Positions 15,351 to 49,608 are shown, numbered from the stretch's first letter. The stretch is DNA of 64,000 bases from a virus (IMGVR_UViG_3300027917_004314); one strand, 5' to 3'. Notes: generated by a model not told the origin, from the letters alone. Translations and numbers: made by a program.

Positions 15351-15361
15351 GAGTGTGAGTT

Positions 15362-16594: not shown

Positions 16595-16600
16595 ATTATT

Positions 16601-17929
16601 ATGGCATCGTTTTCGGCTAATATAACTACAGAACAACTAGAAGACCCCAAGCTGGTGGCGGTCCACGAATACCAAGGATCGAATCAGGCAGCTTTGTGGC
16701 GAAACTCAGATTTTGGGTGGGATTTATTTGATCCACAACCTTCTTGGCGTACGGATTCTCAAGCCCAGGCTGTGTGGAGCGATGGATATGGGCGAATCGT
16801 AGTCCATGACTCTATTTCAACTAACCGTTTTATGCATTATGACGGATACTCCTGGTCAAATGTGTTAGGATTTCTACCGGACGCTTGGGTATGTGAAGCT
16901 TTGGGTGGCATGAGTATGTCAGAATTGTGGGCTGGCGGTGATGGTTATGTGGGATTTTATGATGGCTATTCGTGGACGGAAGCGCTAGGGCCTTTAGATG
17001 AACTGGTTCCAGTATACAGCATATGGTCCAAACGCTCTGAAATGATTACCAAAACGTGGGTAGTTGGCGGGTCCGCTGGTAATGAGGGCGTATATTACTA
17101 CGATGGCTATTCATGGACTAATTTCTATTCAGATATAGAGCTAGTTGACGAATATGTTGGTGTTCCGATGGCAGTTTGGGGCAGTTACTTAGCAGATGAT
17201 GTTTGGGTTGCCTTTGATCTTTGTGATAATCCTACCGTAAGTGGCCGAGTGGCTCATTATAATGGTGTAAGTTGGTCTATTATAGGTGGCGTGTTAGACG
17301 AGGGTCAACAAGTGTTGTGGGGCTTAACTTTTACTGCCAACGAATTATGGTCGGCAGGAGATGACAGCGCCGGTATCGCTCCTATCGTAGTTGGCTGGAA
17401 TGGTTCAACCTGGGACAATAAACTAACTGGCGATTATGTAGCACGTCGTATGCTCGGGCTTCAATCAGGACTAAGTAACGGCGTATATCTTGCTACTGGT
17501 ACCGGTGCTACCTCTAATGGCGCGGTTTACAGACGATGGGATCGCAGCGGGTTAGACGGGGAACATGTATGGCTTTCAGATCAAGTTATACCTCGGCAGT
17601 GGCGTGATTTGGCGGTTCTAGAAGATGCGCCAGTACAACCGTATTTTTATATGGAAATAGAGGAGGGGTATGGTTTAGGATATGAGACAGCTTTCGACGG
17701 TTATTTCTTGCCGCCATTTGAAAATTCTACCGTTACGTTTAGCGATGCTGACGGCTGGCAAGGTTACGATATTGAAATCATAAAAGATTCTTATTGGGAT
17801 CTGGGAAGAATCACTATGGATATAACCATTGATGCGTACAACAACCCAGTCAATTTAGAGCCAGAGCCTGGGTCTTTTGATCGAAGCAGAGACTCTGTGG
17901 TTAGATTTCGTTTAAGAAAAACGCCTTAG
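16601..17929 (+). CDS. putative virion beta-propeller protein
   Basis: Repeated (H/F/Y)YDGxSW blade-like units. Confidence 0.6.
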   Translation: MASFSANITTEQLEDPKLVAVHEYQGSNQAALWRNSDFGWDLFDPQPSWRTDSQAQAVWSDGYGRIVVHDSISTNRFMHYDGYSWSNVLGFLPDAWVCEALGGMSMSELWAGGDGYVGFYDGYSWTEALGPLDELVPVYSIWSKRSEMITKTWVVGGSAGNEGVYYYDGYSWTNFYSDIELVDEYVGVPMAVWGSYLADDVWVAFDLCDNPTVSGRVAHYNGVSWSIIGGVLDEGQQVLWGLTFTANELWSAGDDSAGIAPIVVGWNGSTWDNKLTGDYVARRMLGLQSGLSNGVYLATGTGATSNGAVYRRWDRSGLDGEHVWLSDQVIPRQWRDLAVLEDAPVQPYFYMEIEEGYGLGYETAFDGYFLPPFENSTVTFSDADGWQGYDIEIIKDSYWDLGRITMDITIDAYNNPVNLEPEPGSFDRSRDSVVRFRLRKTP

Positions 17930-18028
17930 GAGATTTTGTAGAGCCAGAAGCTGGCTCATATGACCAGCCAAAAGGTTCGGTGATCAAATTTCGGTTAAGA
18001 AGTGTTTAATTGTGGAGTGCCTATATAA

Positions 18029-20497
18029 ATGGTAACTTACTTATCAGATAAATTATTTTTGGATGGATACGCAACAAATGACGTATCATTTGGTTCCGAC
18101 AACTCTCCTTGTCAAGGGTGGAGTGATAGGCCGTTATGTCTTGCTGGCAAAACCATGGTCGGTGGTAGTCCAACCAAAGATACTTCACGAGGCGAGTTGG
18201 ATGTCTGGAACTGGAATTCGGCTCTTGATACCTGGGTACGCAAGCATCACATTACCCACCCAGATGATGCTCCAAATACTTTGTTCGGGTTTCATGTCGC
18301 TATGGACAAGACAATGCTGGTGCCGCTCGTCCTCGTCGTCGGGTGTTTCGGATACGCGACACAGACAGGTCGCGTCTACGTCTTTGAACGTGCCGACATC
18401 AACTCCGACTTCAGCTTGGTCACCAAGTTGGAGGCCAGCGACAAAGGGGCGAACGACCAATTCGGGTGGCGAGTCGCAGTAGACGAGATCAACGGTATCA
18501 TTGCTGTGACCGCCAGGGGCTGGGACGATCCAACGTACAGCAATGCCGGGAAGATCTACCTGTTCGAAAAGGACGGTGACTCGTGGCCTGGTAGTGTGGT
18601 TACCCCCGGCACCGAGGATGCCTCCGTTGTTCTGCCTGGTAGTGAGTTGCTCGGTGGTAACTACTATCTTGGCATCGGCCTAGCACTCCGCAATGGGCAC
18701 TTGCTCGCAACTGGTGGGGGGCAAGCGTACAAGAAGGTCAACTACTGGTTAAGGTCGTCTAAGACCAGCTGGCCACATCAGCAAACGCTTGACTACAGCA
18801 CCGATGTTGGATTGACAGACGTCGATATGGATGCCACCGCCACCTATGCTGTGACCGGCGTTGATGACAGCGATAGGATTCGTTTATTGAAGCGTACCGG
18901 ATCCGGGTCCTCAACGTGGGAAGAGAAGGACGTCGAGACCCGGGACGGCGGCGGTGGGGCGGGTTGGTTCGGCGTGATCGTCAAGTTGGCTCCAGATGGT
19001 ACAAGCGTGGCAACGTCCGCAGGTTTTTACGATGACGCTTACAACGAGCAGGGCCGAGCTTGGATTATCCCGATTGTTTCCGATGCTTTTGATACAGGCA
19101 ATGAGGAGATTTTTGCAGCAGCGGATGCAGAAGACTATCATTATTTTGGCAGTTCTCTTGATTGGAATGGCCACCACATAGCAATTGGCGCGTGCGGCGA
19201 TGATGAAGCTGCCGAGAATGCTGGAGCGTTATATTATGATCTGGCAGGCGAAGATTATCCAGGAGGCGGTTTTTTGGATAATCAAGATCCACCGCACGAT
19301 TCTTACGGGGCTCTGCCGTCTACGAACATATCTACGGACATATTAGGTCTGTACACGGGTATAAATCTCAACACAATAGATGCATATGTTAACGGAGCCT
19401 TAGCATTTACCGGTCCGTCAACCTTTATATCGCCATACAACGGACCCTCATCTTCAATTACTGCCACCACTGTGGACGGCTATGATGGTTATAACATAGT
19501 ATTCGACAATACAACCGATTTCAGTATAGGCTCGGCCGTTACTACTAGAATCGTATGTCAAGATAACTATGGAGCTTCTATAGATGAAAGTTGGACATTT
19601 CATATAGCACAAACCGTACTTTCATTGGTGCACGGCCCTTATGAAATTACCTTTGATATTACTTTTTCTGGCGAAGTATCCTCTAGTGCGCTAAATCCTG
19701 CTTACTATTTGTTTGATAATGGAATGTATGCCAGATTAGTAGAGCACATGGAAAACGATACGTATAGGCTGTGGACAGAACTTTATGAGGGTGATTCAAC
19801 ATTTAGCCTAACTGTTTCGCCCAATCTAAAAGACAGTTACGGCGGTTCTATATATACGGATCCCATAACTACCACACCTTTTTATTCTTCTGCCGATATG
19901 AGTAATTATGATGGAAAAGTTAGATCGTGGCGTCAGAGCAATTTGATAAGCGCAGATAGTCAGAGAATTTATTTAGCTGGCACAAGAGGAATAGATGTTT
20001 TTCGTAAAGTTACTGAAGTAAATCCAGTAAGATGGGGTCAAATATTAGACGAATACGGTATTAACGCCATGTTTGTGGCCAATTACACTAGCGACTTAGT
20101 GATTACTGATACAGTGCCGCCATACGTAACAGATCAGGATCCGCCGGCCTCGGGCACTTCTTACACTTCAGATCCTATATTGTTTACGGTTACAGACGTT
20201 TCTTCAGCGGTGGAAATCCCTTCCACCACCGTATATGTCAACGATGTCATAGCTTTTAATGGTGGCGACGGCGGCTGGGATAATGGATATACTGGCACTA
20301 TTACAGTGGAGTTTAGGAGACTTGATTTTGTTATAAACCCACCTGTACCATTCACTCCAGAGTCCACTGTAAGAGTTAGAGTGGTGGCATCAGATTTGCT
20401 CGGAAATCTTTTAGACATCACATATTCATTCACGGTTACTTCCACTACCGGGTTTGGGTTTTCAATATACGGCACGTCGTCATTTGGAGGGGTATAA
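18029..20497 (+). CDS. putative virion adhesin/tail protein with FG-GAP-like repeats and Ig-like domains
   Basis: FGFHVA, FGWRVA, FGVIVK, FGSSLD repeats with AGKIY/AGALY; DNQDPP/TDQDPP Ig-like modules. Confidence 0.7.
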   Translation: MVTYLSDKLFLDGYATNDVSFGSDNSPCQGWSDRPLCLAGKTMVGGSPTKDTSRGELDVWNWNSALDTWVRKHHITHPDDAPNTLFGFHVAMDKTMLVPLVLVVGCFGYATQTGRVYVFERADINSDFSLVTKLEASDKGANDQFGWRVAVDEINGIIAVTARGWDDPTYSNAGKIYLFEKDGDSWPGSVVTPGTEDASVVLPGSELLGGNYYLGIGLALRNGHLLATGGGQAYKKVNYWLRSSKTSWPHQQTLDYSTDVGLTDVDMDATATYAVTGVDDSDRIRLLKRTGSGSSTWEEKDVETRDGGGGAGWFGVIVKLAPDGTSVATSAGFYDDAYNEQGRAWIIPIVSDAFDTGNEEIFAAADAEDYHYFGSSLDWNGHHIAIGACGDDEAAENAGALYYDLAGEDYPGGGFLDNQDPPHDSYGALPSTNISTDILGLYTGINLNTIDAYVNGALAFTGPSTFISPYNGPSSSITATTVDGYDGYNIVFDNTTDFSIGSAVTTRIVCQDNYGASIDESWTFHIAQTVLSLVHGPYEITFDITFSGEVSSSALNPAYYLFDNGMYARLVEHMENDTYRLWTELYEGDSTFSLTVSPNLKDSYGGSIYTDPITTTPFYSSADMSNYDGKVRSWRQSNLISADSQRIYLAGTRGIDVFRKVTEVNPVRWGQILDEYGINAMFVANYTSDLVITDTVPPYVTDQDPPASGTSYTSDPILFTVTDVSSAVEIPSTTVYVNDVIAFNGGDGGWDNGYTGTITVEFRRLDFVINPPVPFTPESTVRVRVVASDLLGNLLDITYSFTVTSTTGFGFSIYGTSSFGGV

Positions 20498-20527
20498 AAC
20501 TATAAGGAGATGAGTTTTTAAAAAAAC

Positions 20528-22108
20528 ATGCCCACTTGGTATTTTGAAACAGGCAACCCGCCTTTCTATGATAATCAAAGTCCTCAAGATGGCTACTCTA
20601 ATGTGGACAAGTTTACACTTGTTTCCATAGATGTTGCAGACGCAGAATCTTACGTAGATTTATCAACGCTTGATGCGTATGTCAACGGTGCTGATGCTTA
20701 TAGAATTGGCGTTGGGTTTGTAGCTCCTTATGATGGATATTTTTCCAGCATTACACCTACGATTCTAGATGGTTATGATGGATATACTATTACCTTTGAT
20801 AGAACTGGATATTATCCTCCGCTATCTTACGTTACTTTTCGCATTGTGGTTGATGATTACGGCGGCAATACGCTGGACGAGTCATGGACTTTTCAAATTG
20901 AGACGTCATTAGATCCGTTTGTTGATAATGAGAGTCCTGCTAGAAATGCCACTGGCGTGTCTCAGTCGTCACTCATTTCCTTTGACGTGCTGGATCCAGA
21001 GGGCGAGATGGGCTCGGATACTATAAATATATATGTAGAAGGAAATCTTGCGTACGGTGGCGGTACATTTATATCGCCGTATGACGGTGTTAGCTCTTAT
21101 GTTTCCTTTACGAGTCAGCCCGGTGGAGATGGCTATCATGTTGTTATTGATAAAACCTCTGCGCTCGATGCTATAGTACCGGTCAGAGTTATAGCTAGCG
21201 ACCCAACCGGCGGCACCCTAGACGACTCCTGGGGTTTTACAACACTTTTTGAAAATATCAATGTCATCTATTACTCTGATGGGTATGGCATAAAGAAAAT
21301 ATATATTGCCAATATAGCTGGAGAAAGTCAGAGTCAAGCCGTTACGATTTTGGATTATCCGCTGATACCATCAAATAACGTAATCTCGCTTTCTGGTAAT
21401 TTCATATCCAGCAATTCTTATCTGGTTTCTTGCTATGACGACTATGGAGGTGTAATAGATGCTTATGGTATGGCTGACGATGCGTACGGAGTATCTGTCA
21501 TACGTAATGAGGCCGGTGTCACACAGTATTTAGATGGGTACAGCACCAATGACGGTGCTATAACTGATAAAGGAATTTTATATGTAATAAATAGAAATCT
21601 TAACAGAATAGAAGTCTACTATGGGGCTCATTTCAGAAGCGGCAGTAGAGGTCCAGACTTTATTTACAATACCGCGTCTTCACCGTCTTTGTTTCCAGGA
21701 GAAATTCTATGTATGCATGTAGAAGATGGGAATTCAGTTGTGCTAAGCGGTGGTGCTAGACTATTTGTTGGGACATCTCTGGGTATGACTCGCATTGATA
21801 CATATGATCAGCAAACGGTAGACGGATATAGCGACGGATATGATGGGTATGGTCTTGCCACAACATTTGGCATAATAGGAAGCGGCGCCGAATATGAATC
21901 AATTGGTGGAACAATTCCGAGGGTTACGGCCGTGTCCTCAGACGAATTGTCGACTATTTTCGTCGTAACGAATGATGGATATGGTGATGGCGGTTTAACA
22001 CAAATCGCTATTTCTGGAAATCGCAGATTGGCATTTTTGACGGAGGCCACCGGTTTTGTGCCGTCAAATGATATAAGAGATATTTTTGGTAAGAATTTTA
22101 GTAATTAA
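20528..22108 (+). CDS. putative virion protein with two Ig-like modules
   Basis: DNQSP...DESWTF and DNESP...DDSWGF modules resemble those in 18029..20497. Confidence 0.65.
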   Translation: MPTWYFETGNPPFYDNQSPQDGYSNVDKFTLVSIDVADAESYVDLSTLDAYVNGADAYRIGVGFVAPYDGYFSSITPTILDGYDGYTITFDRTGYYPPLSYVTFRIVVDDYGGNTLDESWTFQIETSLDPFVDNESPARNATGVSQSSLISFDVLDPEGEMGSDTINIYVEGNLAYGGGTFISPYDGVSSYVSFTSQPGGDGYHVVIDKTSALDAIVPVRVIASDPTGGTLDDSWGFTTLFENINVIYYSDGYGIKKIYIANIAGESQSQAVTILDYPLIPSNNVISLSGNFISSNSYLVSCYDDYGGVIDAYGMADDAYGVSVIRNEAGVTQYLDGYSTNDGAITDKGILYVINRNLNRIEVYYGAHFRSGSRGPDFIYNTASSPSLFPGEILCMHVEDGNSVVLSGGARLFVGTSLGMTRIDTYDQQTVDGYSDGYDGYGLATTFGIIGSGAEYESIGGTIPRVTAVSSDELSTIFVVTNDGYGDGGLTQIAISGNRRLAFLTEATGFVPSNDIRDIFGKNFSN

Positions 22109-22659: not shown

Positions 22660-23415
22660 ATGATAGTTTATATAAAAGATAGAGAAGATATAGAAAATTT
22701 TAAATTGGTTGGCAAATGCACTGCGGAAATACTTTCAATATTACTTAACAAAGCAAAAGAAGGAGTAACTACTAGAGAACTTGATTCAGTGGCACAAACA
22801 GAATGCCAAAATCGCGGCGTCACGCCGGCATTTTTAAACTATCGCGGCTTCCCGGCCGCGATTTGCACATCTGTCAATAAAACTTTGGTGCACGGGGTTC
22901 CTGATGATACGGCCCTTGTAAACGGTGACATATTGTCGATAGATATTGGTGTAGAAAAACAAGGATATATAGGAGACTCAGCTGAGTCCATTATCGTGGG
23001 CGGCGAACCAAATGATTTGATAGAGAAATGTAGGATCGCTTTAAAAAATGGAATTGACAAGGTTAGGGCTGGCAACAGACTGAGCAACATATCACAAGCA
23101 ATTTATGACGTTTCTAGAAAAGCTGGATATTCGATAGCGCGTGGATATGGGGGGCATGGGATTGACAGACACCGTTTACATGCGGATCCCTTTGTGTCGA
23201 ACATTCCAGTTGAAGATGAAGACGACATAAAGTTGCGTCCAGGTATGATTATTGCCATAGAACCAATGTTAATCGCTTATAATAATGGAAAGACACGTGT
23301 GTCGGATCAAGACAACTGGTCCGTTATCGCAAGTGGCATGGCTGCTCATTGTGAACATACTATTTTAGTAACAGACGGGAAGCCATTTATTTTAACAGAT
23401 AGGAGTAATAATTGA
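22660..23415 (+). CDS. map: type I methionine aminopeptidase
   Basis: FPAAICTSVN, VHGVP, SIDIG, GDSAES, GHGI, AIEPM, HCEHTILVT metal-ligand motifs. Confidence 0.93.
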   Translation: MIVYIKDREDIENFKLVGKCTAEILSILLNKAKEGVTTRELDSVAQTECQNRGVTPAFLNYRGFPAAICTSVNKTLVHGVPDDTALVNGDILSIDIGVEKQGYIGDSAESIIVGGEPNDLIEKCRIALKNGIDKVRAGNRLSNISQAIYDVSRKAGYSIARGYGGHGIDRHRLHADPFVSNIPVEDEDDIKLRPGMIIAIEPMLIAYNNGKTRVSDQDNWSVIASGMAAHCEHTILVTDGKPFILTDRSNN

Positions 23416-24458
23416 TATCTCTAGATTCTTTGTTGTTGACCCCAAGCGGAGCCAAAAGGGCTGAAGAGATAGGGCCTGGAGATGACGTCTATATTTATAG
23501 GGGATCTAATATGGGTGTACAAGCTGTTACTTTTGTGAAAAGTGTTTCAAGTGAAGCCGTCGCTATAAAATATTACTCTAAAAACATATGCGTGGTGCCA
23601 AAAACAGCAAAAGTGATTGTTAGTGACGACAGAAGAAAACACTTATCAAAGGAAAAACAAGTGTCGGATGTTGGCCGGCATGACCTTGTTCATAGGAAAT
23701 TCGTAGATATTAGTATGGGCACAGCTGACGAGCCGCATGCCTATTCCATTGGCGCTTTACTCGGAGACGGTTGTTGTTGTGAAGGAAAAAACGCAATATA
23801 CATTAGCTCAGATAGCCGGCACATACCACAGTTTGTTGGAGAACAGCTAGGTGCCAAACATATAAGAAAACAAAGGGGAGATAACTACACATATATTATA
23901 AGCAATGGCATAGGGTGTGCGGGTAATGTGGGGCATCCGGCCGTTATTTGTCATCACTATAATAAGTGGTGTAAAAACAGAAAAGCACATCAAAAAATTG
24001 TTAACCTAGACATAATTAAGACATGGAATAGGGATAGCTGTATAAGATTTCTTTCCGGACTGTTGGACACAGACGGATCAATAGAAGTTGATGATATGCG
24101 CATTACCGTTAATTGGTTTAGTCAGTCGAAATCCATCATAGATGGTATATATTTTATAATTTTGTCGCTATGGCAGACTGAACCACTTATTTGTGTAGAT
24201 GGAAGGAGCAAATATGTGAACGGACCAGTGTACAAAATATATGTAAGGAAAAATTTATTCTCAAAAAGAATACTAGAGGAGTGTTCTCCACACCTATTAA
24301 AAAAGAAATGCGGTGAATTTGTCGGTAGGACACACAAAGCCTGTTATGGGTTTATAAAACCACAATTTATTTGTCAAGGCGAACAGCGTTTTTTAGATTT
24401 TGGCTTTGACGGCTTTTTTATAACTTCAAACCAAGGTGTTTTGGTGAGGGGAGATTAA
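23412..24458 (+). CDS. free-standing intein-like LAGLIDADG (DOD) homing endonuclease with degenerate Hint ends
   Basis: YSIGALLGDG and RFLSGLLDTDGSI blocks; N-terminus resembles intein block A, C-terminus resembles block G, but there is no Cys1 and no His-Asn. Confidence 0.75.
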   Translation: MISLDSLLLTPSGAKRAEEIGPGDDVYIYRGSNMGVQAVTFVKSVSSEAVAIKYYSKNICVVPKTAKVIVSDDRRKHLSKEKQVSDVGRHDLVHRKFVDISMGTADEPHAYSIGALLGDGCCCEGKNAIYISSDSRHIPQFVGEQLGAKHIRKQRGDNYTYIISNGIGCAGNVGHPAVICHHYNKWCKNRKAHQKIVNLDIIKTWNRDSCIRFLSGLLDTDGSIEVDDMRITVNWFSQSKSIIDGIYFIILSLWQTEPLICVDGRSKYVNGPVYKIYVRKNLFSKRILEECSPHLLKKKCGEFVGRTHKACYGFIKPQFICQGEQRFLDFGFDGFFITSNQGVLVRGD

Positions 24459-33952: not shown

Positions 33953-34174
33953 TTGACAACTGTAATCAATAGTTCACAAAAAATATCTTATAAGGTTTAT
34001 GTAAGAGGTGTGGGCATGCGAATGGTTACGTTTGAGACGCTCCGGGTACCATGGTGGTACCGCATATTTCGGAAGCCAAATGGCAGGTTAATAGCGCTCG
34101 AAGAAATGGATGAGGGTTATCGAAGAGGGTGGAGCTTCGTGGCTTCGATCTTGATACCAGACGAATTAAAATGA
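33953..34174 (+). CDS. hypothetical protein
   Basis: GAGGAGG upstream; TTG start. Confidence 0.5.
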   Translation: MTTVINSSQKISYKVYVRGVGMRMVTFETLRVPWWYRIFRKPNGRLIALEEMDEGYRRGWSFVASILIPDELK

Positions 34175-34335
34175 AATTATTAAATGCGGGCAAACCATTG
34201 CTAATACATGAGTTAAAACAATGCCATGAATGCAAGCATATCTTTGTTTACAGTAGAAACATTATCAACCCCAAGCTAAATAAAATACTAATATATTGTC
34301 CAAATTGTGGGTATAAGATACGCATTTATCTATGA
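34171..34335 (+). CDS. zinc-ribbon protein (MKLLN family)
   Basis: ATGA overlap; CHEC...CPNC. Confidence 0.7.
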   Translation: MKLLNAGKPLLIHELKQCHECKHIFVYSRNIINPKLNKILIYCPNCGYKIRIYL

Positions 34336-34595
34336 GATGTTTTAATCCAAATAATAAAAACAGAGCCATAGTAAAAGAATTTTTCTGGACTTCTCAGTTT
34401 AATTGGCAGGGCAATAGGTATGTCAGCGCGGGTTCACATACGTTTACAGTAAAGTATCTTTGCCCCCGCTGTCGGTATCGGTCAGTGCAGATTACAGAAT
34501 ATGATGACGATGGGCCGTGGGAAATCGAATGCCCGCACTGTGGTCTTGATGTATTTATTCCGGCATCCGCCGAATTGACTAATAGGAAAAGATAA
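34332..34595 (+). CDS. zinc-ribbon protein
   Basis: CPRC...CPHC; ATGA overlap. Confidence 0.7.
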   Translation: MRCFNPNNKNRAIVKEFFWTSQFNWQGNRYVSAGSHTFTVKYLCPRCRYRSVQITEYDDDGPWEIECPHCGLDVFIPASAELTNRKR

Positions 34596-34936
34596 TGAAA
34601 GAAAAGAATAGCAACGACATATATATCAAAAAGATATCTGACAATCCAATACAAAATGGGCCAGATGAAAAGGATGCTTCGGATTTATATGTTACTTCTC
34701 CGTATCCATGGACACCAGTGTATGATATAGGCTCCTCAAAGGCAGAATATGTGCCCAGATGTGTTTCAATAAAGTTGCAGTTTTATTGTCCTACATGCTT
34801 TTCTATGTTTGTAATAGAACGTTCATATTTTAGGACAACTGATAAAATGACTTGTTTTTGTGGGACTAAGCTAAAATTTGAGAAGGCGCAGTGTTTTCGT
34901 ATGAGGAACGAGGAGTTTTTTTATGAAATTGCTTAA
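34595..34936 (+). CDS. zinc-ribbon protein
   Basis: CPTC...CFC. Confidence 0.65.
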   Translation: MKEKNSNDIYIKKISDNPIQNGPDEKDASDLYVTSPYPWTPVYDIGSSKAEYVPRCVSIKLQFYCPTCFSMFVIERSYFRTTDKMTCFCGTKLKFEKAQCFRMRNEEFFYEIA

Positions 34937-35108
34937 TGCAAAACGGAAATCTGAGAAATATGAAAGATTAGAAAAAAGTCTAAATATGTTAGTGGAAGAC
35001 GGTTATATAAAGGGCTGGAAAGATCTAAAGATTGATGGTAACGGTATATCGTATACAATAGTGCCTGTCGAACCTGTGAAATTCTGGGTATGTGACATAA
35101 AACTGTGA
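34923..35108 (+). CDS. hypothetical protein (MKLLNAK N-terminus)
   Basis: Coupled ORF. Confidence 0.6.
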   Translation: MKLLNAKRKSEKYERLEKSLNMLVEDGYIKGWKDLKIDGNGISYTIVPVEPVKFWVCDIKL

Positions 35109-35265
35109 GATTACTAAACTCCAGAGGCGGAACAGTAGTTGTGTCGCTTGCGAAAAATGTGCAGCAGCATTATATTTTTATATACGCCGGAATTATAAAA
35201 ATGCAAGCACATCTGTTTTTTGTCCATCTTGTGGGCAAGATTTGCTTGTGACCATAAAATCATGA
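35105..35265 (+). pseudogene. frameshifted MKLLN-family zinc-ribbon gene
   Basis: The GTG frame gives VRLLNSRG; the CEKC...CPSC ribbon lies in the -1 frame, which has no start codon and ends at TGA 35265. Confidence 0.55.
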
Positions 35266-35474
35266 GGGTTTTGAATAAAAAAACAAAAGTCCTGACATTT
35301 GACGAAGAACAAGACGATCCGCCTAATGGATTCCATTTTTTCTTGTCATGTCATTGTTTCCATTGTGCAGAAATGATTTATATCTACTGCAATAAAACGA
35401 AGCCGCGAAGATTTAATACGAATTGCCCATCTTGCGGGGCGGCAGCAAGTTGGTTTACTTCCCATGGATCATGA
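35262..35474 (+). CDS. zinc-ribbon protein (MRVLNKK), paralog 1
   Basis: CFHC..MIYIYC...CPSC. Confidence 0.75.
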   Translation: MRVLNKKTKVLTFDEEQDDPPNGFHFFLSCHCFHCAEMIYIYCNKTKPRRFNTNCPSCGAAASWFTSHGS

Positions 35475-35725
35475 AGATATTAAATAGCAAAATAAAAGTT
35501 CTGTCTTTCGTTAGCACAATTACAACTCACGAAGGTTTCTTTTTTTGGGGTAGTTGGACGTGTGACAGCTGCGATAAGAAAATGTTTATATACTGTAGTC
35601 ACAAGGGTCCTCATAAGTGGCTAAAAACACAATGCCCGCATTGCTCCGAGAAAGTATTTATAATGACGGTTCATGGGATTTTCGATGCACTTTCCACCAA
35701 GCTGGCCAAAACGCACAAATTATGA
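35471..35725 (+). CDS. zinc-ribbon protein (MKILNSK), paralog 2
   Basis: CDSC.KKMFIYC...CPHC. Confidence 0.75.
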   Translation: MKILNSKIKVLSFVSTITTHEGFFFWGSWTCDSCDKKMFIYCSHKGPHKWLKTQCPHCSEKVFIMTVHGIFDALSTKLAKTHKL

Positions 35726-35913
35726 AACTCCTGAACTCAAAAGTAAAAATTACGGTATTCGCAAAAAGAAAAACTCCATATCACGGCTTTCGACTTATCT
35801 GGGCCAGCAAATGTTGGGGCTGCAAAAAAGAAATGTACGTCTACTGTAACAAGAAATGCTCCTCGCCTTTTTGGTTTAATTGTCCCCATTGCAACTTCCC
35901 TTATTACGTATAA
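35722..35913 (+). CDS. zinc-ribbon protein (MKLLNSK), paralog 3
   Basis: CWGCKKEMYVYC...CPHC. Confidence 0.75.
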   Translation: MKLLNSKVKITVFAKRKTPYHGFRLIWASKCWGCKKEMYVYCNKKCSSPFWFNCPHCNFPYYV

Positions 35914-35978: not shown

Positions 35979-38636
35979 ATGGTTTTTTACATCTCTAAAA
36001 GAGCTGGGGAAGTTGTTGAATTCCCTGAGAAAACACAACAAATGCATCGTTTCAGGACGGCTCCAGATACTAGTATTCACAAGTATTTTCACCCAGAAAA
36101 TTTTACAACATGGGATGACTACCTGACAGACGACCCTAAAATGGATCCTGCTGAATATATACATACATGGAAGGTATTTCATTTTGCAGATGGCACTGTA
36201 GCTGCGTCTCTTAACGTGCGCGGCGACCAAAAAACGTTCTCTTTGTATCTGCAATGGCCTGATTTCTTTGGGAAAGCTTTTCCGGCTGCCCAGACTAGAG
36301 ATGATACTTATATCATAAATTTTGAAAATCAGCCGATTTACATGCTCCCTGTTCTGTTAAAGAGTTTAAACCCTCTCCTGCGGGCTGTCAGCGCCTATGA
36401 GGCATATGTGGAAGAGGATGATGAGTATGAAGCGGACGATGATACAGCAAAGTCAGATCTTACAGATCTCAGAAAATATTTCCCCGTTTCTACTTTTGCT
36501 ACCATGGACGCCGATAAACCAGAATGGTTTATTAACAAATATGAAGCGAATGAAATCAAAGCACGTTTGCGTTTCGAAGAAGGAGACGTTACGTTTATCG
36601 TTGCAAGAGCTATTTTCTCAGATATATTCGGTTTTCGACTCGCATGGCCGCAATCTTTTCGAATGGGCGGTTTTAAAGAAAATGAATCACAAAGTAGTGT
36701 GTTTCATGGCACTAGCCTTAAAAAAGAAGAGTTCGAAGAACTCCTGCCGCAAATTTACGATTTGATTGGTGAATTTACATTGAAAAAAGAGCTGGAACGC
36801 CCACAGCGTCCAGTTCAACGACTAGAATCGCTTTTACCCAAGGAATTGTTTAGAGGATGGGATTTTGTAGAGTATTATAGCCACGTGTTGAATGCTTCTA
36901 TTTCCCGCCCTACCTTTCACTTATTAATAACATATGAACCAAAAATGTTAAGCGTGCCTGGCTTTTATGAAATCCGAGTCGGGCCGGCAGCACATAATAT
37001 CTGGACAGAAACAGAAGATGAGTTCCCTTCAGAAAAATTGCTCAAATTAATAAAAACAAAAGGCGAAGAAAATCAGCCGGTAAAACTACAAAATCAGCAT
37101 TTTCCAATATCTAAGCGCGCTAAATCAAAATATATCGAAAAAAAAGAAGAAGAATCCGGCAATATAACATATATCTACTCGGAAAAACACATCAAAGAAA
37201 GAAATAAGAAAAAAGCTAAGAAAATCTTGGAACTAGAAAAATCTATCAAAGATGTGAGAAAACAGGTCCAAAAAGATATCTCATCCAAAGAACCTGTGCT
37301 CGAAGATATAGCCGCCGTCGTTGGACTGATCGATGATACATACGAAAGAGTGGGAAACCCAAGCTCCGCTAAAGAAGATCACCACGGCGTTACAACCTGG
37401 AGAAAGAAACACGTCACGTTCTCCAAAGGAAAAGCTACTATTAAATATGTAGGAAAATCCGGCGTCAAACAAGAAAAAATTGTGGAATCAAACCCCCTCG
37501 TCGCTGCTCTTAAAAGAGCTATAAAAGATAAAAAACCAAATGATGAAATATTTCCTGATATTAATGGCAGACTGGTAAACCTTTACCTTAAACCTTATAA
37601 TATAACTGCCAAAGATATAAGAGGATTCCACGCCAACGAAGAGATGAAAAAAGCTCTTAAATCAAATAGGAATGGAACTCTACCAAAAGATCAAAAGGAG
37701 AAAGAGAAGAAGCTTAAAGAAGAGTTCAAAGAAGCTTTAGAAATAGCCGCAAAAAAAGTAGGACACGAGCCCGCTACCCTTAAAAACCAATATCTTATCC
37801 CATCTATAGAAGAACATTATCTAACTTCCGGCAAAATTAAAGTGCAAGCACAACTTAAACTTGCCCAAGAATTAGACCTCAGAAAATTGTTCCCACCGGC
37901 AACATTTGGAAGTATGGGAGGAGATAAAATCTGGAAATTTGTGATTTTTGAGCCAAATGCGGTAGTTACCAACTTATTTACGAAACATGGCTCAATGGAG
38001 TTTTATGTAAAGCTCTCAACCCACGAGAATAAATATATTCTACATATTGATTGGCCCAAACATTACGATATTAAAGGATTAAAAACGCTACCACTAAAAC
38101 CGGATGAGTCCAAAATAGGACAGAGGCTCTTCGGACCACAAGGCTGGGTCCAAATTGATGACTATATAACACAAGATCAATTGTTGAACCTTGTCCCAGA
38201 AATCCATGAACTTATTGGATCTTTAACGCTTGAAACAGAAAAAGAGCTAGAACATGTCGAAAATATGATCGAAAGAGTATTTCCTCATAATGTTTTCGAA
38301 GGTTGGAGCTTAATATATGATAAACTAGCACATAGATATACATTGTCAGGAAATACTTTTTCTCCAACATGCCACTTTTCTATATCAGAATTTCCAAGCC
38401 GCGATGCGTTCTATGTCTCGATAAGTTGGCCAAGAGATTTGGGAAGACTCCTAGTACCCACTAGTAGATCAAAACATGAGTTTACATCTGGTGGATATAT
38501 GTCGTTCGACGACGAAGATAAATTAGATAAGCTTAAGAAAGTGATCAAATACCTTGGAGATTTGGCTAAAGCAAATACCCTAGATCTACCAGAACCAGAA
38601 CCGCTTCAACAGGAGAACCCTGAACCAGAACAATGA
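35979..38636 (+). CDS. multidomain protein: type IB DNA topoisomerase (about 37122-37850) embedded between novel repeat domains
   Basis: Topo IB catalytic residues in order: YERVGN (R), VGKSG (K), AKDIRG (R), VGHEPAT (H), NQYLIP (Y); also HHGVTTW..KHV. Confidence 0.85.
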   Translation: MVFYISKRAGEVVEFPEKTQQMHRFRTAPDTSIHKYFHPENFTTWDDYLTDDPKMDPAEYIHTWKVFHFADGTVAASLNVRGDQKTFSLYLQWPDFFGKAFPAAQTRDDTYIINFENQPIYMLPVLLKSLNPLLRAVSAYEAYVEEDDEYEADDDTAKSDLTDLRKYFPVSTFATMDADKPEWFINKYEANEIKARLRFEEGDVTFIVARAIFSDIFGFRLAWPQSFRMGGFKENESQSSVFHGTSLKKEEFEELLPQIYDLIGEFTLKKELERPQRPVQRLESLLPKELFRGWDFVEYYSHVLNASISRPTFHLLITYEPKMLSVPGFYEIRVGPAAHNIWTETEDEFPSEKLLKLIKTKGEENQPVKLQNQHFPISKRAKSKYIEKKEEESGNITYIYSEKHIKERNKKKAKKILELEKSIKDVRKQVQKDISSKEPVLEDIAAVVGLIDDTYERVGNPSSAKEDHHGVTTWRKKHVTFSKGKATIKYVGKSGVKQEKIVESNPLVAALKRAIKDKKPNDEIFPDINGRLVNLYLKPYNITAKDIRGFHANEEMKKALKSNRNGTLPKDQKEKEKKLKEEFKEALEIAAKKVGHEPATLKNQYLIPSIEEHYLTSGKIKVQAQLKLAQELDLRKLFPPATFGSMGGDKIWKFVIFEPNAVVTNLFTKHGSMEFYVKLSTHENKYILHIDWPKHYDIKGLKTLPLKPDESKIGQRLFGPQGWVQIDDYITQDQLLNLVPEIHELIGSLTLETEKELEHVENMIERVFPHNVFEGWSLIYDKLAHRYTLSGNTFSPTCHFSISEFPSRDAFYVSISWPRDLGRLLVPTSRSKHEFTSGGYMSFDDEDKLDKLKKVIKYLGDLAKANTLDLPEPEPLQQENPEPEQ

Positions 38637-39574
38637 TTAAATATATCTCGCAAAAATTGTCCATACCAGAAAGATATCTGAAAACTCTATCCCAACAACA
38701 ATTAAAGAATATCAAGATCCTAGTGGACCTGAATAAACTAAAAGAGGCTAGAGACCTATATGTCAAATATCAGATCCAAAACTACCGACAGAAAAAAGCC
38801 ATGTCTAAACGAGCAATAGAAGTTGTTAATGTTACTCGTAAAATGCCAGAAGAAGTCGAAGAACAAGAAAAAGAAATGGAAGAATGGTCTCAACAAAAAG
38901 GCTTCGACCTAAGAGAATTGTTCCCAAAAGAAGCATTCGTTATGCCTCAATGGGAATTTGCAGTTTTTAATACATACCAAGTATGGGCAGATACCATCGG
39001 AGGCCTTAGCCCATCTAAAGATCCAGAATACAATATACATAAAAGAATCGAATTTCTGGCGGAAGCTACATCGCCGTCCCGACAACCATACCCTAAAAAT
39101 GCTACGTTTATGATATATATGAGCTTTCCCAAAATAGCTAATATGGAAAGTAGTGTGTTCGAAATAGAAAAAGGATACGCAGGAATAGAATTTGTCCGCA
39201 TCGAAGACCTTAATTTAGAACAATTGAAAAAACTGGCGCCCTATATATTGAATTTCATTAATAAAGCTAGCTCTCGTGTTCTTGCAGTAAAAGCATATAA
39301 GGATTTCCCGCTGTCTAAACGAGCAGGAGAAATAATACCCTTCCCAACAAAAGAAACCGAAACCATACAATCCGAACCCGCTCAAATTCTGCCCCTACCA
39401 AAAATTAAACAGAAAAAACTCAAAGGTTTCATGGATCTAACTATCGATTACCTGAAATCTATTATAGATAAATACCAGAGCGGAGAAATGTCAGCAGCAG
39501 AATTCGCTAGCAGATTGACGTACCTCGCCGCCGAAACCCAAGAACATATGTTTGATGAACCTATAAAAACATGA
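38633..39574 (+). CDS. repeat-domain protein with SKRA motifs (putative internal head protein)
   Basis: DLRELFPKEAF unit; two SKRA motifs. Confidence 0.75.
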   Translation: MIKYISQKLSIPERYLKTLSQQQLKNIKILVDLNKLKEARDLYVKYQIQNYRQKKAMSKRAIEVVNVTRKMPEEVEEQEKEMEEWSQQKGFDLRELFPKEAFVMPQWEFAVFNTYQVWADTIGGLSPSKDPEYNIHKRIEFLAEATSPSRQPYPKNATFMIYMSFPKIANMESSVFEIEKGYAGIEFVRIEDLNLEQLKKLAPYILNFINKASSRVLAVKAYKDFPLSKRAGEIIPFPTKETETIQSEPAQILPLPKIKQKKLKGFMDLTIDYLKSIIDKYQSGEMSAAEFASRLTYLAAETQEHMFDEPIKT

Positions 39575-41160
39575 GATTATCTAAACGAGACTTCTACCTC
39601 TCAAAACGAGCGGCAGACAACATGGATCTAACTCAAATACTACCTAAACAAATATTCGGCGGAATGGGTGGAGCTGGAGCAGCAATCCCCTGGACAATAC
39701 TACAATATACGCCAAAATCAATAGCAGCTTATCTAAATACTACACAACCATCAAACTCGCCAATAACAGAAACCAGAAAAATATTCTTTAAAACAGAATT
39801 ATATCAAAATGCCTTCATAGTTGTCATCTCATGGCCTCCAAAATATAAAATAGATACAAACCTGGAAGTAAAGTACAAAATAGAAGACAATGATGAAGAT
39901 TACTCAGATTTTCTAGAGGAATACCAAGACGAAGTACTATATGTGTCCCAAACAGTTACAAAAGAAGAACTAATGGCCCTAAAAGATGAAATAGCATATA
40001 TATTGGGACAACTTAATCATCAACTAAATCAAGAACTTGAGGAGTTTCAGCCACCAAGCGTTGTTGAAAGAATTTTCCCCAGAAGCTTGTTTTCAGGATG
40101 GGATTTCCTGGAATTACATGAAGATGAAGGGTTTACAACTATACACGCCGAAGCATTTTTCAATAGCATTAAAAGTATTGATGTTAGCTTGGTCATACAA
40201 GAAAAATTGAACGACGAAATAGGTTTCTATATTCACCATAAAAACGATTCCGTAGAATACGATATCTCATTAGATGATGAAAACAAACTAAACGAGCTAA
40301 AACAATGGATTAAAGAAATAGGAGAAGAAAACCAACGAAGCAAAGTGGCTCCCATTACACACCTCTCAAAACGAGCACAACAAGATGTTAACCTTTTTCA
40401 AATATTTCCTAAAGATAAGTTCCCTAATTGGATAGAATCTCGGATCTCTAAGCCAGATAATCTCTATAGACAACTGCCCTTGCCACCAGGAATAAATGAC
40501 GCCGGATTCCGAGCTGAACTAATACCAGACCCAACAAAAGATATCCATGATTACGATATCTTCCAAGAAGGTATGTACGAAGAAGAATACCAAGAAGCAA
40601 TGAATACCTTTAAACCACCAAAAACACACGCGGAAGTGTCCCTGTACTACGACCCAACCATTAGTTCGTACGAAGAAAAAGATTTCATAAAAATTACAAA
40701 ACCAGAAGAAAATTGGGAAAGTAAATGGAAAGAATTCAAAGAAATCGTAACTATAGAAGAATTACCAGCACTGGCTAACAAAATTATGCCACTAATAGAA
40801 CACCTGTCAGAAATATACTACACCATGCAAGATAAATTCGAAGAATCCCTTCCAGTAGATTCGCCATACAGAATATTGCCTCCGCAAATATTCCCAGGAT
40901 GGAAAACACACATAACACCAAATGAAAAAATGCTCGTCGCCGGCATGGAAACTAAAAAACGATTCCAAATCATCCAAACAAGATTGACTATAGAAAATGA
41001 CCAAGCAACACTAGAACTACTCTGGCCTGAAGAATTCCTCCATAGAGCAGGACTCAAACAAACAAAAATAACCGCGCCAATAAATAATATCCCAAACCTA
41101 CAACGTATAGTAGATACTATCAAATTTATAGGACAACAAAAATTGAAAGGAAATATATAA
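39571..41160 (+). CDS. repeat-domain protein with SKRA motifs (putative internal head protein)
   Basis: Four (I/L)(L/F)PxxxF units; SKRD plus two SKRA. Confidence 0.78.
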   Translation: MRLSKRDFYLSKRAADNMDLTQILPKQIFGGMGGAGAAIPWTILQYTPKSIAAYLNTTQPSNSPITETRKIFFKTELYQNAFIVVISWPPKYKIDTNLEVKYKIEDNDEDYSDFLEEYQDEVLYVSQTVTKEELMALKDEIAYILGQLNHQLNQELEEFQPPSVVERIFPRSLFSGWDFLELHEDEGFTTIHAEAFFNSIKSIDVSLVIQEKLNDEIGFYIHHKNDSVEYDISLDDENKLNELKQWIKEIGEENQRSKVAPITHLSKRAQQDVNLFQIFPKDKFPNWIESRISKPDNLYRQLPLPPGINDAGFRAELIPDPTKDIHDYDIFQEGMYEEEYQEAMNTFKPPKTHAEVSLYYDPTISSYEEKDFIKITKPEENWESKWKEFKEIVTIEELPALANKIMPLIEHLSEIYYTMQDKFEESLPVDSPYRILPPQIFPGWKTHITPNEKMLVAGMETKKRFQIIQTRLTIENDQATLELLWPEEFLHRAGLKQTKITAPINNIPNLQRIVDTIKFIGQQKLKGNI

Positions 41161-49258: not shown

Positions 49259-49608
49259 GGGCTCGACAAGGTTTCGACGTGGGTGATGGAGCATAGGGAT
49301 GCAAGCCGGGGATGGTTACAGCCTCGTTAAAAAGTGACCACACAATAACTTCCAACGAAGTTGAATTCAGAGCTGCTGCATAGCAGTTCCGTTCTACCAG
49401 CTCTCCCGTCTGTGACGGCTGGATAGAGCGACGACGGACAGGCTGGGCGCTAGCAATCTCGGCTAGCTAGCGCTAAGATTCAGTCGGGAAACGAAGTCAA
49501 GAAGCCTGCTGCTGGGCGTCTCGGTGGGTATACAAAACATCAGCTAAGCTTGTAGAATCTCGTGTGAAGCACTTGCGGACCCGGGTTCGATTCCCGGCGA
49601 GTCCACGA
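49259..49608 (+). ncRNA. ssrA: tmRNA, tag peptide (A)SNEVEFRAAA
   Basis: GGGCTCG/CGAGTCC with G3-U70; 5' GAC-AAGG-TTTCGAC; ATAACT resume context; tag ORF 49351-49383; T arm CCGGG-TTCGATT-CCCGG. Confidence 0.92.

What the first reader, a model, noticed from the sequence alone, without database searches (positions are those of the whole stretch)
35991..40377. Recurrent (I/L/M)SKRA motif: candidate prohead-protease cleavage code with basic specificity
Seen: SKRA at 35991, 37107, 38801, 39311, 39598 and 40363, plus LSKRD at 39577. All lie near N-termini or at domain boundaries in three consecutive genes, with varied codons. Two are followed by GE(V/I)(V/I).FP. Known: T4 gp21 and phiKZ gp175 cleave head proteins after short Glu-ending motifs. 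Inference: an analogous maturation signal with K-R-A specificity marking internal or ejected proteins.
Basis: partly seen in the sequence, partly recalled or inferred. Interest (0 to 1): 0.78.

Follow-up and report, generated by a model that had tools for sequence, protein, structure and literature searches.

The report
Cut-site-like motif punctuating megaphage proteins
Three neighbouring genes of a roughly 460-kb uncultured phage related to Bacillus phage G carry a short peptide (Phe-x-Leu/Ile-Ser-Lys-Arg-Ala) at each start and most module joints; it is most likely where the phage's head protease cuts, but no cutting has been shown.

Summary
[I/L/M]SKRA occurs six times in frame in three coupled genes (0.02 expected) and nowhere else in six frames of 64 kb.

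The genes encode an intact type IB topoisomerase, ten copies of a near-orphan ~120-residue domain, and short leaders and tails.

- **Conservation:** I collected 102 distinct instances from metagenomic relatives. The consensus is (S/D)-F-(P/Y)-(L/I)-S-K-R-A. In the eight homologues mapped against Pfam, every site lies between domains or at an N-terminus. All Ser and Arg codons are used.
- **Relatives:** A complete 442-kb relative is colinear with the window. Its capsid protein is 52% identical to phage G gp27.
- **Head-module link:** In that relative, and in six others, motif-delimited multi-enzyme proteins lie between the portal gene and a protease-scaffold fusion gene. The topoisomerase module is often among them.
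- **Protease sites:** The protease has conserved hydrophobic-x-K-x-A and A-S sites flanking its catalytic domain.

Most likely the motif is a head-protease processing signal cut after Ala, and possibly a loading signal. Cleavage, packaging and the identity of the enzyme are all inferred.

The window's locus lies outside the head module and lacks the helical tag seen on head-module proteins.

This scan has already noted the same motif in this genome's head module and in at least six other genomes. I found no published description.

The parts
35979..38636 (+). Gene A, 885 aa: leader, three D domains, ISKRA, type IB topoisomerase, degenerate joint, two D domains
35991..36005 (+). Motif 1, ISKRA, residues 5-9 of A (leader MVFYISKRA). 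A stop codon lies two codons before the Met, so the site is truly N-terminal.
   Evidence: orthologue P0002 has LSRRA here
36006..36026 (+). GEVVEFP element directly after motif 1
   Evidence: the same element follows SKRA/SRRA in B, P0013 and P0019
36069..37094 (+). D domains A1-A3 (FPxxxF..W / WP / C-terminal helix repeat)
37107..37121 (+). Motif 2, ISKRA (context HFPISKRA), immediately before the topoisomerase module
   Evidence: S, K, R and A are invariant or nearly invariant at this position in 22 aligned homologues
37188..37787 (+). Type IB topoisomerase catalytic core (PF01028, E 8.5e-30). The catalytic pentad R-K-R-H-Y is conserved against variola TopIB 2H7F.
37851..37865 (+). Degenerate joint QLKLA between the topoisomerase and D domain A4. 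Orthologue P0002 has EISKRA plus six more residues here.
37872..38606 (+). D domains A4-A5 (AlphaFold2 pair model, pLDDT 79)
38633..39574 (+). Gene B, 313 aa: 56-residue leader (begins MIKYISQKL, a decayed copy of A's start), MSKRA, one D domain, LSKRA, 82-residue tail
38801..38815 (+). Motif 3, MSKRA
38903..39310 (+). D domain B1
39311..39325 (+). Motif 4, LSKRA (context DFPLSKRA)
39326..39571 (+). C-terminal tail of B: GEIIPFPTKE element, Pro-rich linker, helical end. A similar tail follows LSRRA at the C-terminus of P0013.
39571..41160 (+). Gene C, 529 aa: leader MRLSKRDFYLSKRA, D domains C1-C2, LSKRA, D domains C3-C4
39577..39612 (+). LSKRD followed by motif 5, LSKRA, in the 14-residue leader of C. 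The leader is conserved in P0057 (MRLSKRDFHISKRA).
39622..40365 (+). D domains C1-C2
40363..40377 (+). Motif 6, LSKRA, between C2 and C3. It shares an identical 16-mer with motif 5. P0057 looks like a deletion between the two.
40387..41157 (+). D domains C3-C4

Best explanation
The heptapeptide F-x-(L/I)-S-K-R-A is a portable processing signal of phage-G-like megaphages. I propose that the head-maturation protease cuts after the Ala. This protease is gp19-like and, in the three relatives where I found it, is fused to a long scaffold-like protein. The essential residues would be K/R at the third position before the cut, Ala at the first, and a hydrophobic residue at the fifth.

In this window, cutting would:
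- remove 9- and 14-residue leaders from A and C and a 61-residue leader from B;
- free a three-domain D unit and a type IB topoisomerase (possibly still joined to two D domains) from A;
- free one D domain and an 82-residue tail from B;
- free two D-domain pairs from C.

By analogy with T4 internal proteins, the N-terminal copy may also help load the proteins into the prohead. They would then travel with the DNA into the host.

Shown: the motif, its conservation, its position at joints, its peptide-level selection, the lineage, and the head-module location of the same kind of protein in relatives.

Inferred: cleavage, the cut position, the enzyme, packaging and ejection.
For: 1. Six in-frame copies against 0.02 expected, and none elsewhere in the window.

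2. About 30 of the 55 proteins returned with A as query (A itself and its homologues) carry 1-5 copies. Across homologues and loci there are 102 distinct instances with consensus (S/D)-F-(P/Y)-(L/I)-S-K-R-A. The residue after Ala is never Pro or aromatic, and the flanks are rich in E/K/P.

3. In eight homologues mapped with Pfam, every copy lies between domains or at the N-terminus. The domains are SET, TopoIB, CCA-transferase/HD, ASCH and a Zn ribbon. Unrelated folds follow the motif, so it is not part of one fold.

4. Selection acts on the peptide. 51 DNA instances give 42 distinct 12-mers and use all six Ser and all six Arg codons.

5. Variants at homologous sites keep [KR]-x-A: LSRRA, LAKRA, MSKNA, LSKYA, ISRHA, LSKSA, QLKLA, and LSKR(M/Y)A read as R-x-A. 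This fits K-x-A cut after Ala better than a dibasic K-R cut.

6. Lineage. Window 1-38 kb is colinear with a complete 441,904-bp relative, G001, at 36-62% amino-acid identity. G001's capsid protein is 52% identical to phage G gp27.

7. In G001 the strict motif occurs only in multi-enzyme proteins. These are the topoisomerase locus, syntenic with the window, and a cluster lying between the protease-scaffold gene and the portal. The cluster carries a PTP phosphatase, a ferritin-like domain, LigD-PE plus 2H, and a DNA ligase plus PrimPol.

8. In six further relatives (L004, L006, L007, L009, L010, L012) the topoisomerase module itself lies inside such head-module proteins.

9. The protease domain matches phrog_18299, 'head maturation protease' (E 1e-13 to 1e-19), and is 34% identical to phage G gp19. 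PMC12484599 also calls gp19 the head maturation protease. Four aligned proteases share hydrophobic-x-K-x-A before the catalytic domain (RFTKYA, RFKKFA, RFVKLA, LVKTA) and [IVK]-[IV]-A-S right after it.

10. Phage G proteins scattered over its genome start with MKRLISKTA, MKRLIKKA, MKRLFKKA, LKRLKKKA or ISRLKKTA. One of them, ferritin-like gp346, is encoded far from the head genes and was reported in particle proteomics (PMC12484599).

11. G001's capsid-protein leader ends in LIKRA where homology to phage G's capsid protein begins.
Against: - No cleavage, N-terminus or virion-content datum exists for any motif-bearing protein.
- The window's three genes sit among nucleotide-metabolism genes, small zinc-ribbon genes and a tRNA array, not among head genes. 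Their timing of expression is unknown.
- They lack the helical hairpin tag that I found eight times in G001's head module.
- In G001 the strict motif is absent from the capsid protein, portal and scaffold. The relaxed pattern is only modestly enriched proteome-wide (93 seen, 64 expected).
- The N-terminal copies are conserved even where nothing needs separating, so the motif may do more than, or something other than, mark a cut.
- The protease domain matches no Pfam protease family or solved structure by sequence. Its specificity is inferred from conserved sites only.
- I could not read this genome's own head module. The 460,921-bp contig gave no DNA, and no whole genome is held.
Confidence: 0.55

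Rival explanations
1. The motif is an uncleaved docking or loading peptide. Each module carries a short handle that binds a common partner such as the scaffold, portal, protease or a chaperone. Multi-module proteins stay whole.
For: N-terminal copies are conserved where no separation is needed. The motif is often followed by a strand-like element, GE(V/I/L)(V/I/L)xFP. T4 capsid-targeting sequences show that very short N-terminal peptides can address proteins to the prohead (established knowledge).
Against: Copies also lie near C-terminal ends, for example P0020 and the last site of B. Up to five copies per chain, exactly at domain joints, suits punctuation better than a single address. The K-x-A / A-S pattern recurs at the edges of the protease's own catalytic domain, where self-release is the usual reading.
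Confidence: 0.15
2. The motif is a cleavage site read by another protease, outside the capsid. Candidates are a phage or host enzyme with dibasic specificity (cut K-R / A, as kexin or flavivirus NS3 do), or a peptidase carried in some of the chains. The proteins would then be cytoplasmic polyproteins, not cargo.
For: The window's locus lies outside the head module and lacks the head tag. One D-domain homologue, P0063, carries an HExxH motif. G001 has a DJ-1/PfpI domain in a neighbouring giant protein. Phage G encodes a zinc peptidase next to its terminase, and also ClpP/ClpX.
Against: Arg at the position before Ala is the least conserved core residue in variants (N, Y, H, S, L), which a K-R-specific enzyme would not tolerate. 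No M16 peptidase was found in five relatives. Neither A, B, C nor most homologues contain a recognisable peptidase. In most relatives the same modules are encoded in the head module.
Confidence: 0.15
3. The repeats are mainly recombination joints. Short identical stretches of DNA at module borders let modules be gained, lost and shuffled, and the peptide itself has no function.
For: Motifs 5 and 6 share an identical 16-mer, and P0057 looks like a deletion between them. Modules occur in many orders, always with the motif in front. CGA is over-used for Arg in the motif (37% against 11% in the same ORFs).
Against: There are 42 distinct 12-mers among 51 instances, including AGY and TCN serine codons and all six Arg codons, so the DNA is not conserved. 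Identity around the copies does not extend beyond 14-22 bases. Upstream residues (F at -3, P/Y at -2) are conserved as amino acids.
Confidence: 0.05
4. The motif is the conserved first turn of one repeated domain, copied by tandem duplication, and is not an independent signal.
For: In the window, five of the six SKRA sites precede a D domain at a fairly constant distance (SKRA, a linker of some 5-33 residues, then the (D)L-x-x-x-FP start of the domain).
Against: The same motif precedes the topoisomerase, CCA-transferase, ASCH, PTP, ferritin-like, LigD-PE and zinc-ribbon modules. It also precedes a short tail in B. D-D joints inside pairs have no motif.
Confidence: 0.03

Closest known systems
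T4 prohead protease gp21 with its substrates (gp23, gp24, IPI-III, Alt) and the capsid-targeting sequence of the internal proteins
   Same: Short N-terminal leaders of about ten residues end in a fixed cleavage motif. The motif is shared by unrelated proteins that are packed in the head and injected. The protease also trims itself.
   Different: T4 cuts after Glu in (L/I)-x-E. Here the first residue before the presumed cut is Ala, with Lys/Arg two residues earlier. T4 cargo proteins are single modules, whereas here chains of up to five or more modules are punctuated by the motif. In this window the genes lie far from the head genes. Nothing has been shown biochemically.
phiKZ gp175 / SPN3US gp245 prohead proteases and their ejection proteins (PMC10052503)
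   Same: These are giant phages whose heads hold many internal and ejected proteins, processed at a short consensus that can be read from sequence. Propeptides carry several sites.
   Different: The phiKZ and SPN3US consensus is (S/A/G)-x-E. The lineage is unrelated (chimalliviruses, not phage G-like). Their substrates are not beads-on-a-string enzyme chains.
Herpesvirus assemblin (pUL26-type protease-scaffold fusion; release and maturation sites (V/L/I)-x-A / S)
   Same: The protease is fused to a long scaffold-like protein (1289-1353 residues in three relatives). Ala is followed by Ser right after the catalytic domain, and Ala is the residue before the presumed cut.
   Different: There is no detectable sequence similarity to Pfam S21, S77 or S78. 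Lys/Arg is required at the third position before the cut. The presumed substrates include enzyme cargo, which herpesviruses do not process this way.
Polyvalent proteins of phages and conjugative elements (Iyer, Burroughs, Anand, de Souza, Aravind 2017; PMC5512222)
   Same: Many unrelated enzyme domains (2H, phosphatases, nucleic-acid enzymes, LPD-type domains in some homologues) are strung in one phage protein. These proteins are proposed to be delivered with the DNA and to be processed into units.
   Different: That paper proposes processing by embedded zincin-like peptidase domains and describes no linear junction motif. The proteins here have no such peptidase, but do have a fixed heptapeptide at every joint.
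Poxvirus virion type IB topoisomerase
   Same: It is a small viral TopIB with the R-K-R-H-Y pentad (best PDB match 2H7F, E 1e-14). In poxviruses it is carried in the virion (established knowledge).
   Different: Packaging of the phage enzyme is only inferred. The poxvirus active site happens to read S-K-R-A-Y, which is unrelated to the junction motif; the phage active site reads L-K-N-Q-Y.

Membership tests
Substrates of a phage head-maturation protease (T4 gp21 / phiKZ gp175 kind of system) | The genome encodes a head-maturation protease in its head module | tested here: inconclusive
   Met in relatives. G001, G002 and G004 have a gp19-like domain (phrog_18299, E 1e-13 to 1e-17; 34% identity to phage G gp19) fused to a scaffold-like protein between the portal and capsid genes. 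This genome's own head module could not be read. Notes of this scan say it lies about 100 kb upstream.
Substrates of a phage head-maturation protease (T4 gp21 / phiKZ gp175 kind of system) | The same short motif recurs in several head proteins, including the protease's own ends and the capsid or scaffold leaders | tested here: inconclusive
   The strict motif occurs only in multi-enzyme proteins. Looser K-x-A is conserved before the catalytic domain, and A-S after it, in four proteases. LIKRA ends the capsid-protein leader of G001. K-Q-A occurs in both portal N-termini.
Substrates of a phage head-maturation protease (T4 gp21 / phiKZ gp175 kind of system) | Cleavage at the motif demonstrated (N-terminal sequencing or mass spectrometry) | not testable with these tools
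   No peptide-level data were held for the phage G proteomics paper. The phage G structure paper is not held.
Substrates of a phage head-maturation protease (T4 gp21 / phiKZ gp175 kind of system) | The proteins are components of the prohead or virion | not testable with these tools
   The evidence is positional only. Homologous modules lie in the head module in seven relatives. Phage G gp346, with leader MKRLFKKA, is reported in particles.
Polyvalent proteins (PMC5512222) | Two or more unrelated effector or enzyme domains in one polypeptide of a phage or conjugative element | tested here: met
   A combines TopoIB with five D domains. Homologues combine TopoIB with SET, CCA-transferase/HD, 2H, ASCH, PTP, PAP2 and PF18796.
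Polyvalent proteins (PMC5512222) | Embedded zincin-like metallopeptidase proposed to process the chain | tested here: not met
   No peptidase family was found in A, B or C, or in the eight mapped homologues. Only P0063 has a bare HExxH.
Type IB topoisomerase (PF01028), for the central module of A | Match to the family profile above the curated cut-off | tested here: met
   E 8.5e-30, 104 bits against a cut-off of 23.7, residues 404-603.
Type IB topoisomerase (PF01028), for the central module of A | Catalytic pentad Arg-Lys-Arg-His-Tyr | tested here: met
   In the alignment to variola TopIB 2H7F, R130, K167, R223, H265 and Y274 align with R (ERVGN), K (GKSG), R (DIRGF), H (GHEP) and Y (NQY) of A. 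These columns are invariant in 22 homologues.
Herpesvirus-type assemblin (MEROPS S21) and phage S77/S78 proteases, for the relatives' protease | Sequence match to the family profiles | tested here: not met
   PF03420 and PF04586 gave no match in five relatives. Pfam scanned at E <= 10 and a PDB profile search found no protease. Likeness rests on the PHROG annotation, gene position and site pattern.

The most novel reading that the evidence does not exclude
The heptapeptide is a self-sufficient address-and-cut code. Any protein that begins with it, wherever its gene lies in the genome, would be loaded into the prohead and trimmed by the head protease. On this reading, phage-G-like megaphages inject a large arsenal that can be predicted from sequence. 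In this phage it would include a type IB topoisomerase and ten copies of a near-orphan alpha/beta domain that may bind or inhibit host factors. Modules would be reshuffled between phages at the motif itself.
Probability: 0.3. Interest if true: 0.8.

Novelty: new variant of a known kind. Interest (0 to 1): 0.66.

Why it matters
If the motif is the head protease's cutting signal, the proteins that megaphages of the phage G lineage carry in their capsids could be read directly from sequence. These genomes are 400-500 kb, are found in many environments, and are almost all uncultured.

The predicted cargo would be a kit for DNA and RNA repair and modification: ligases, LigD modules, 2H phosphoesterases, a CCA-adding enzyme, phosphatases, a ferritin-like protein and a topoisomerase IB.

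This would also define a protease specificity not described for phages in the papers I could search: Lys/Arg-x-Ala, against Glu in T4 and phiKZ. It would also give a way to deliver foreign proteins into large capsids.

The window adds two things to the head-module cases. The motif also marks a locus far from the head genes. It also delimits a repeated domain family with almost no relatives in 1.8 billion proteins.

Phage G is in culture, so the idea can be tested at the bench.

Tried and rejected
**Searches for relatives**
- blastn of the locus against 50,697 phage records gave no match.
- tblastn of A matched only the topoisomerase core of an uncultured 485-kb phage (LR745208) and of PaBG. 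The LR745208 region has no SKRA, so I dropped it.
- tblastn of C gave no match.
- Single-protein scans of viral contigs with C and A found nothing. An alignment query worked.
- No whole genome is held for the window, and the 460,921-bp contig gave no DNA. This phage's own head genes and protease were therefore not examined.

**Protease identity**
- Pfam S77, S78 and M16_C gave no match in five relatives.
- PF05065 (capsid) gave no match in G001. The capsid protein was found with PHROGs instead.
- A PDB profile search and a lenient Pfam scan of the protease domain found no protease.

**Structure**
- The AlphaFold2 single-sequence model of C was useless (pLDDT 37).
- Fold searches with the D-pair model gave nothing significant in PDB with Foldseek and only weak, unnamed matches in AFDB clusters.
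- VIA-align gave Z of 5-8 to frataxin/CyaY, the TriTu immunity protein, PsiB, Med17 and type III secretion chaperones. These values are within the range of common alpha/beta arrangements, so I assign no fold family.
- Complex prediction of the G001 protease domain with a 41-residue LSKRA segment returned no verdict (score 0.08). It counts neither for nor against binding.

**Other checks**
- A profile of the G001 helical hairpin tag found no copy in the window.
- Homologues of G001's ferritin-like and PTP proteins were not found in phage G by sequence. The ferritin family search found gp346.

**Literature**
- Searches for LSKRA/ISKRA returned only unrelated words.
- No paper found describes this motif or a K-x-A specificity.
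- No supplementary tables are held as text for the phage G multi-omics paper, and the phage G structure paper is not held.

Full report
**What is there**

The window is one strand-uniform stretch of a very large phage genome. Its proteins include:
- a DnaB helicase and its loader;
- the PrkA/DUF444/SpoVR trio;
- ribonucleotide reductase, PhoH, ThyX and thymidylate kinase;
- a cell-wall amidase.

It also holds a tRNA array with a tmRNA. Protein A of the finding is on record on a 460,921-bp contig.

The finding covers three genes joined by ATGA overlaps: A 35979-38636, B 38633-39574 and C 39571-41160.

No other frame of the 64 kb contains SKRA. Composition predicts 0.019 copies in these 1727 residues. 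The six copies use two Ser, two Lys, three Arg and three Ala codons.

The sites lie at residues 5-9 and 377-381 of A, 57-61 and 227-231 of B, and 10-14 and 265-269 of C. GEVVEFP and GEIIPFP follow two of them.

**What the genes encode**

A has a type IB topoisomerase core at residues 404-603 (PF01028, E 8.5e-30). Aligned to variola TopIB (2H7F), all five catalytic residues are conserved.

The rest of A, the middle of B and nearly all of C consist of ten divergent copies of a domain of about 100-150 residues. The copies are 17-32% identical. The domain has three hallmarks: L-x-x-(I/L)-F-P-x-x-x-F..W, then a strand ending in W-P, then a C-terminal helix.

A profile of the ten copies, searched against 1.84 billion representative proteins, found only nine proteins. 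Three are the window's own and two are low-complexity false positives. An AlphaFold2 model of one pair reached pLDDT 79. It shows two alpha-beta(4-5)-alpha sandwiches. Fold searches gave only weak, common-arrangement matches. I leave its function open.

The junction motif precedes D-domain singles, pairs or triples, never the joints inside them.

**The motif is conserved far beyond this window**

Fifty-five proteins were returned with A as query. They share the topoisomerase module and combine it with SET, CCA-adding enzyme plus HD, 2H/LigT, ASCH, tyrosine phosphatase, PAP2 and other domains. About thirty of them (A itself and its homologues) carry [LI]SKRA one to five times.

With the loci fetched later I collected 102 distinct instances. 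The consensus is (S/D)-F-(P/Y)-(L/I)-S-K-R-A, followed by K/A/Q/G/E and never by Pro or an aromatic residue.

In eight homologues mapped with Pfam, every copy lies between domains or within the first dozen residues. P0013, for example, reads SET | motif | TopoIB | motif | unknown | motif | CCA-transferase/HD | motif | unknown | motif | unknown.

The topoisomerase module starts with the motif whether it is internal or at the very N-terminus of a gene.

Fifty-one instances with DNA give 42 different 12-mers and use all six Ser and all six Arg codons, so selection acts on the peptide.

**Variants point to K-x-A**

The 74%-identical orthologue P0002 has LSRRA at the first site and ISKRA at the second. 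It has a third ISKRA at the topoisomerase/D4 joint, where the window's A has a six-residue deletion and reads QLKLA.

Other homologous sites read LAKRA, MSKNA, LSKYA, ISRHA and LSKSA. Sites reading LSKRMA or LSKRYA can be taken as R-x-A. Lys/Arg and Ala persist while the residue between them varies.

**Lineage and genomic setting**

An alignment query found twelve viral contigs with relatives. One of them, IMGVR_UViG_3300029288_005873 (here G001), is 441,904 bp and rated complete. I fetched it whole.

Window positions 1-38,000 are colinear with G001 positions 290.7-256 kb at 36-62% protein identity. G001's major capsid protein is 52% identical to Bacillus phage G gp27. The window's phage therefore belongs to the phage G lineage.

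In G001 the strict form, P-[LIF]-S-[KR]-[RH]-A, is confined to multi-enzyme proteins in two places:
- the topoisomerase locus that matches this window;
- a cluster at 387.7-403.9 kb.

The cluster encodes a PTP phosphatase, a ferritin-like protein, LigD phosphoesterase plus 2H, and DNA ligase plus PrimPol, next to a DJ-1 protein. It lies between the portal and terminase genes (405.5-410.5 kb) and a 1289-residue gene.

The first 250 residues of that gene are 34% identical to phage G gp19. They match phrog_18299, 'head maturation protease'. The same protease-scaffold fusion exists in two more relatives.

In L004, L006, L007, L009, L010 and L012 the topoisomerase module is itself part of these head-module proteins. 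The window's locus therefore looks like a displaced branch of a head-module gene set.

**The protease and its likely sites**

I aligned three fusion proteases with phage G gp19. The alignment shows:
- the conserved D-H and S-M-G catalytic motifs;
- a conserved hydrophobic-x-K-x-A just before the catalytic domain (RFTKYA, RFKKFA, RFVKLA, LVKTA);
- a conserved [IVK]-[IV]-A-S directly after it.

In herpesvirus assemblin, the release site occupies that second position. This is the basis for placing the cut after Ala.

The protease domain has no match to Pfam S77, S78 or any solved structure by sequence.

**Phage G itself**

In the first 200 kb of phage G, 19 of 254 ORFs have hydrophobic-x-K-x-A in their first 30 residues, against 5 of 28 in the head module. 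Several share one leader form:
- MKRLISKTA (gp13)
- MKRLIKKA (gp38)
- LKRLKKKA (gp141)
- RLLKLKKLA (gp233)
- ISRLKKTA (gp20, scaffold-like)

Ferritin-like gp346 starts with MKRLFKKA and is encoded at 255 kb, far from the head genes. The 2025 multi-omics paper lists it among proteins detected in particles (PMC12484599). This parallels the window's situation. That proteome also lists many replication enzymes, so contamination cannot be excluded.

**What speaks against the head-cargo reading for this window**

- A, B and C are not in a head module.
- A profile of the helical hairpin tag (L-x-x-L-A-x-x-L-D-x-x-G...) finds nothing in the window. I found that tag eight times in six G001 head-region proteins.
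- The strict motif is missing from the capsid protein, portal and scaffold of G001. Only looser forms occur, such as LIKRA at the end of the capsid-protein leader and K-Q-A in both portal N-termini.
- N-terminal copies are conserved where nothing needs to be separated, so the peptide may also, or instead, serve as a handle.

The rivals are therefore an uncleaved docking peptide, cleavage by another enzyme outside the capsid, or a mere recombination joint. For the last, motifs 5 and 6 share an identical 16-mer, and P0057 looks like a deletion between them. The codon diversity shows the peptide is what is kept.

**Earlier work**

The polyvalent-protein paper proposes processing by embedded metallopeptidases and names no junction motif. 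Papers on T4, phiKZ and SPN3US describe Glu-ending motifs. No paper found mentions this peptide.

Notes of this scan had already reported the same motif in this genome's head module, about 100-114 kb upstream, and in at least six other phage-G-like genomes. They gave me the lead to phage G and to Ala as the residue before the cut. I then checked both on G001 and on phage G itself. I could not check the same-genome claims directly.

**Verdict**

The motif is real and conserved, is undescribed in the papers I could search, and is tied by lineage and gene position to the head-maturation machinery. Cleavage, the enzyme and packaging remain inferences. For this particular locus the link to the capsid is weaker than for the head-module proteins.

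Noticed in passing
window 42000-64000: GC content jumps from about 0.37-0.39 to 0.49-0.55 at about 42 kb. This 22-kb stretch holds a tmRNA (49259-49608, 165 bits), about ten tRNAs (two with long or odd anticodon loops) and only short ORFs. Much of it has no obvious coding assignment.
   Followed up: partly
window 34129-35913: A run of at least five small, partly overlapping paralogous genes. Each has a start like MK(L/I)LN(A/S)K and two CxxC pairs (zinc-ribbon-like). They lie directly upstream of gene A. Function unknown.
   Followed up: no
window 3665-8248: A PrkA kinase / DUF444 (YeaH-like) / SpoVR trio is encoded by the phage. The closest phage matches are Thermus phages (phiYS40, TMA) and other 340-640-kb phages.
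   Followed up: partly
window 22660-24458: A phage-encoded methionine aminopeptidase (M24) is followed by a gene with a LAGLIDADG domain.
   Followed up: no
window 14097-22108: Five large genes (410-822 aa) lie in a stretch of higher GC (0.43-0.48). One carries FG-GAP repeats. None matches a PHROG, and only two have relatives in G001.
   Followed up: no
window 39596-39611 and 40361-40376; protein P0057: The two LSKRA sites of gene C are encoded by an identical 16-mer. A metagenomic relative (P0057) has the leader joined directly to the second half, as if the DNA between the repeats had been deleted. This suggests modules are lost and gained at the motif.
   Followed up: partly
G001 (L034-L036), 377-418 kb: A helical hairpin tag (L-x-x-L-A-x-x-L-D-x-x-G-x4-A-x-x-hydrophobic-D) occurs eight times in six otherwise unrelated proteins around the head genes of the complete relative. 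It is absent from the window.
   Followed up: partly
protein P0063 (D-domain homologue): It starts with three motif copies in 25 residues (MISKRLKLSKRAGIKAMSLSKRA) and carries an HExxH motif in its C-terminal half. This is a possible embedded metallopeptidase in this protein class.
   Followed up: no
window 37740-37790 (active-site region of the topoisomerase): The poxvirus TopIB active site reads S-K-R-A-Y (variola 2H7F), a coincidental match to the junction motif. The phage enzyme reads L-K-N-Q-Y at that position.
   Followed up: yes
Bacillus phage G NC_023719.1, genes 141 and 233: Two paralogues far apart in phage G share the leader (L)KRLKKKA / RLLKLKKLA, followed by ELYHHTSS / ELFHTTSS. 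They are candidates for testing leader removal in a cultured phage.
   Followed up: no
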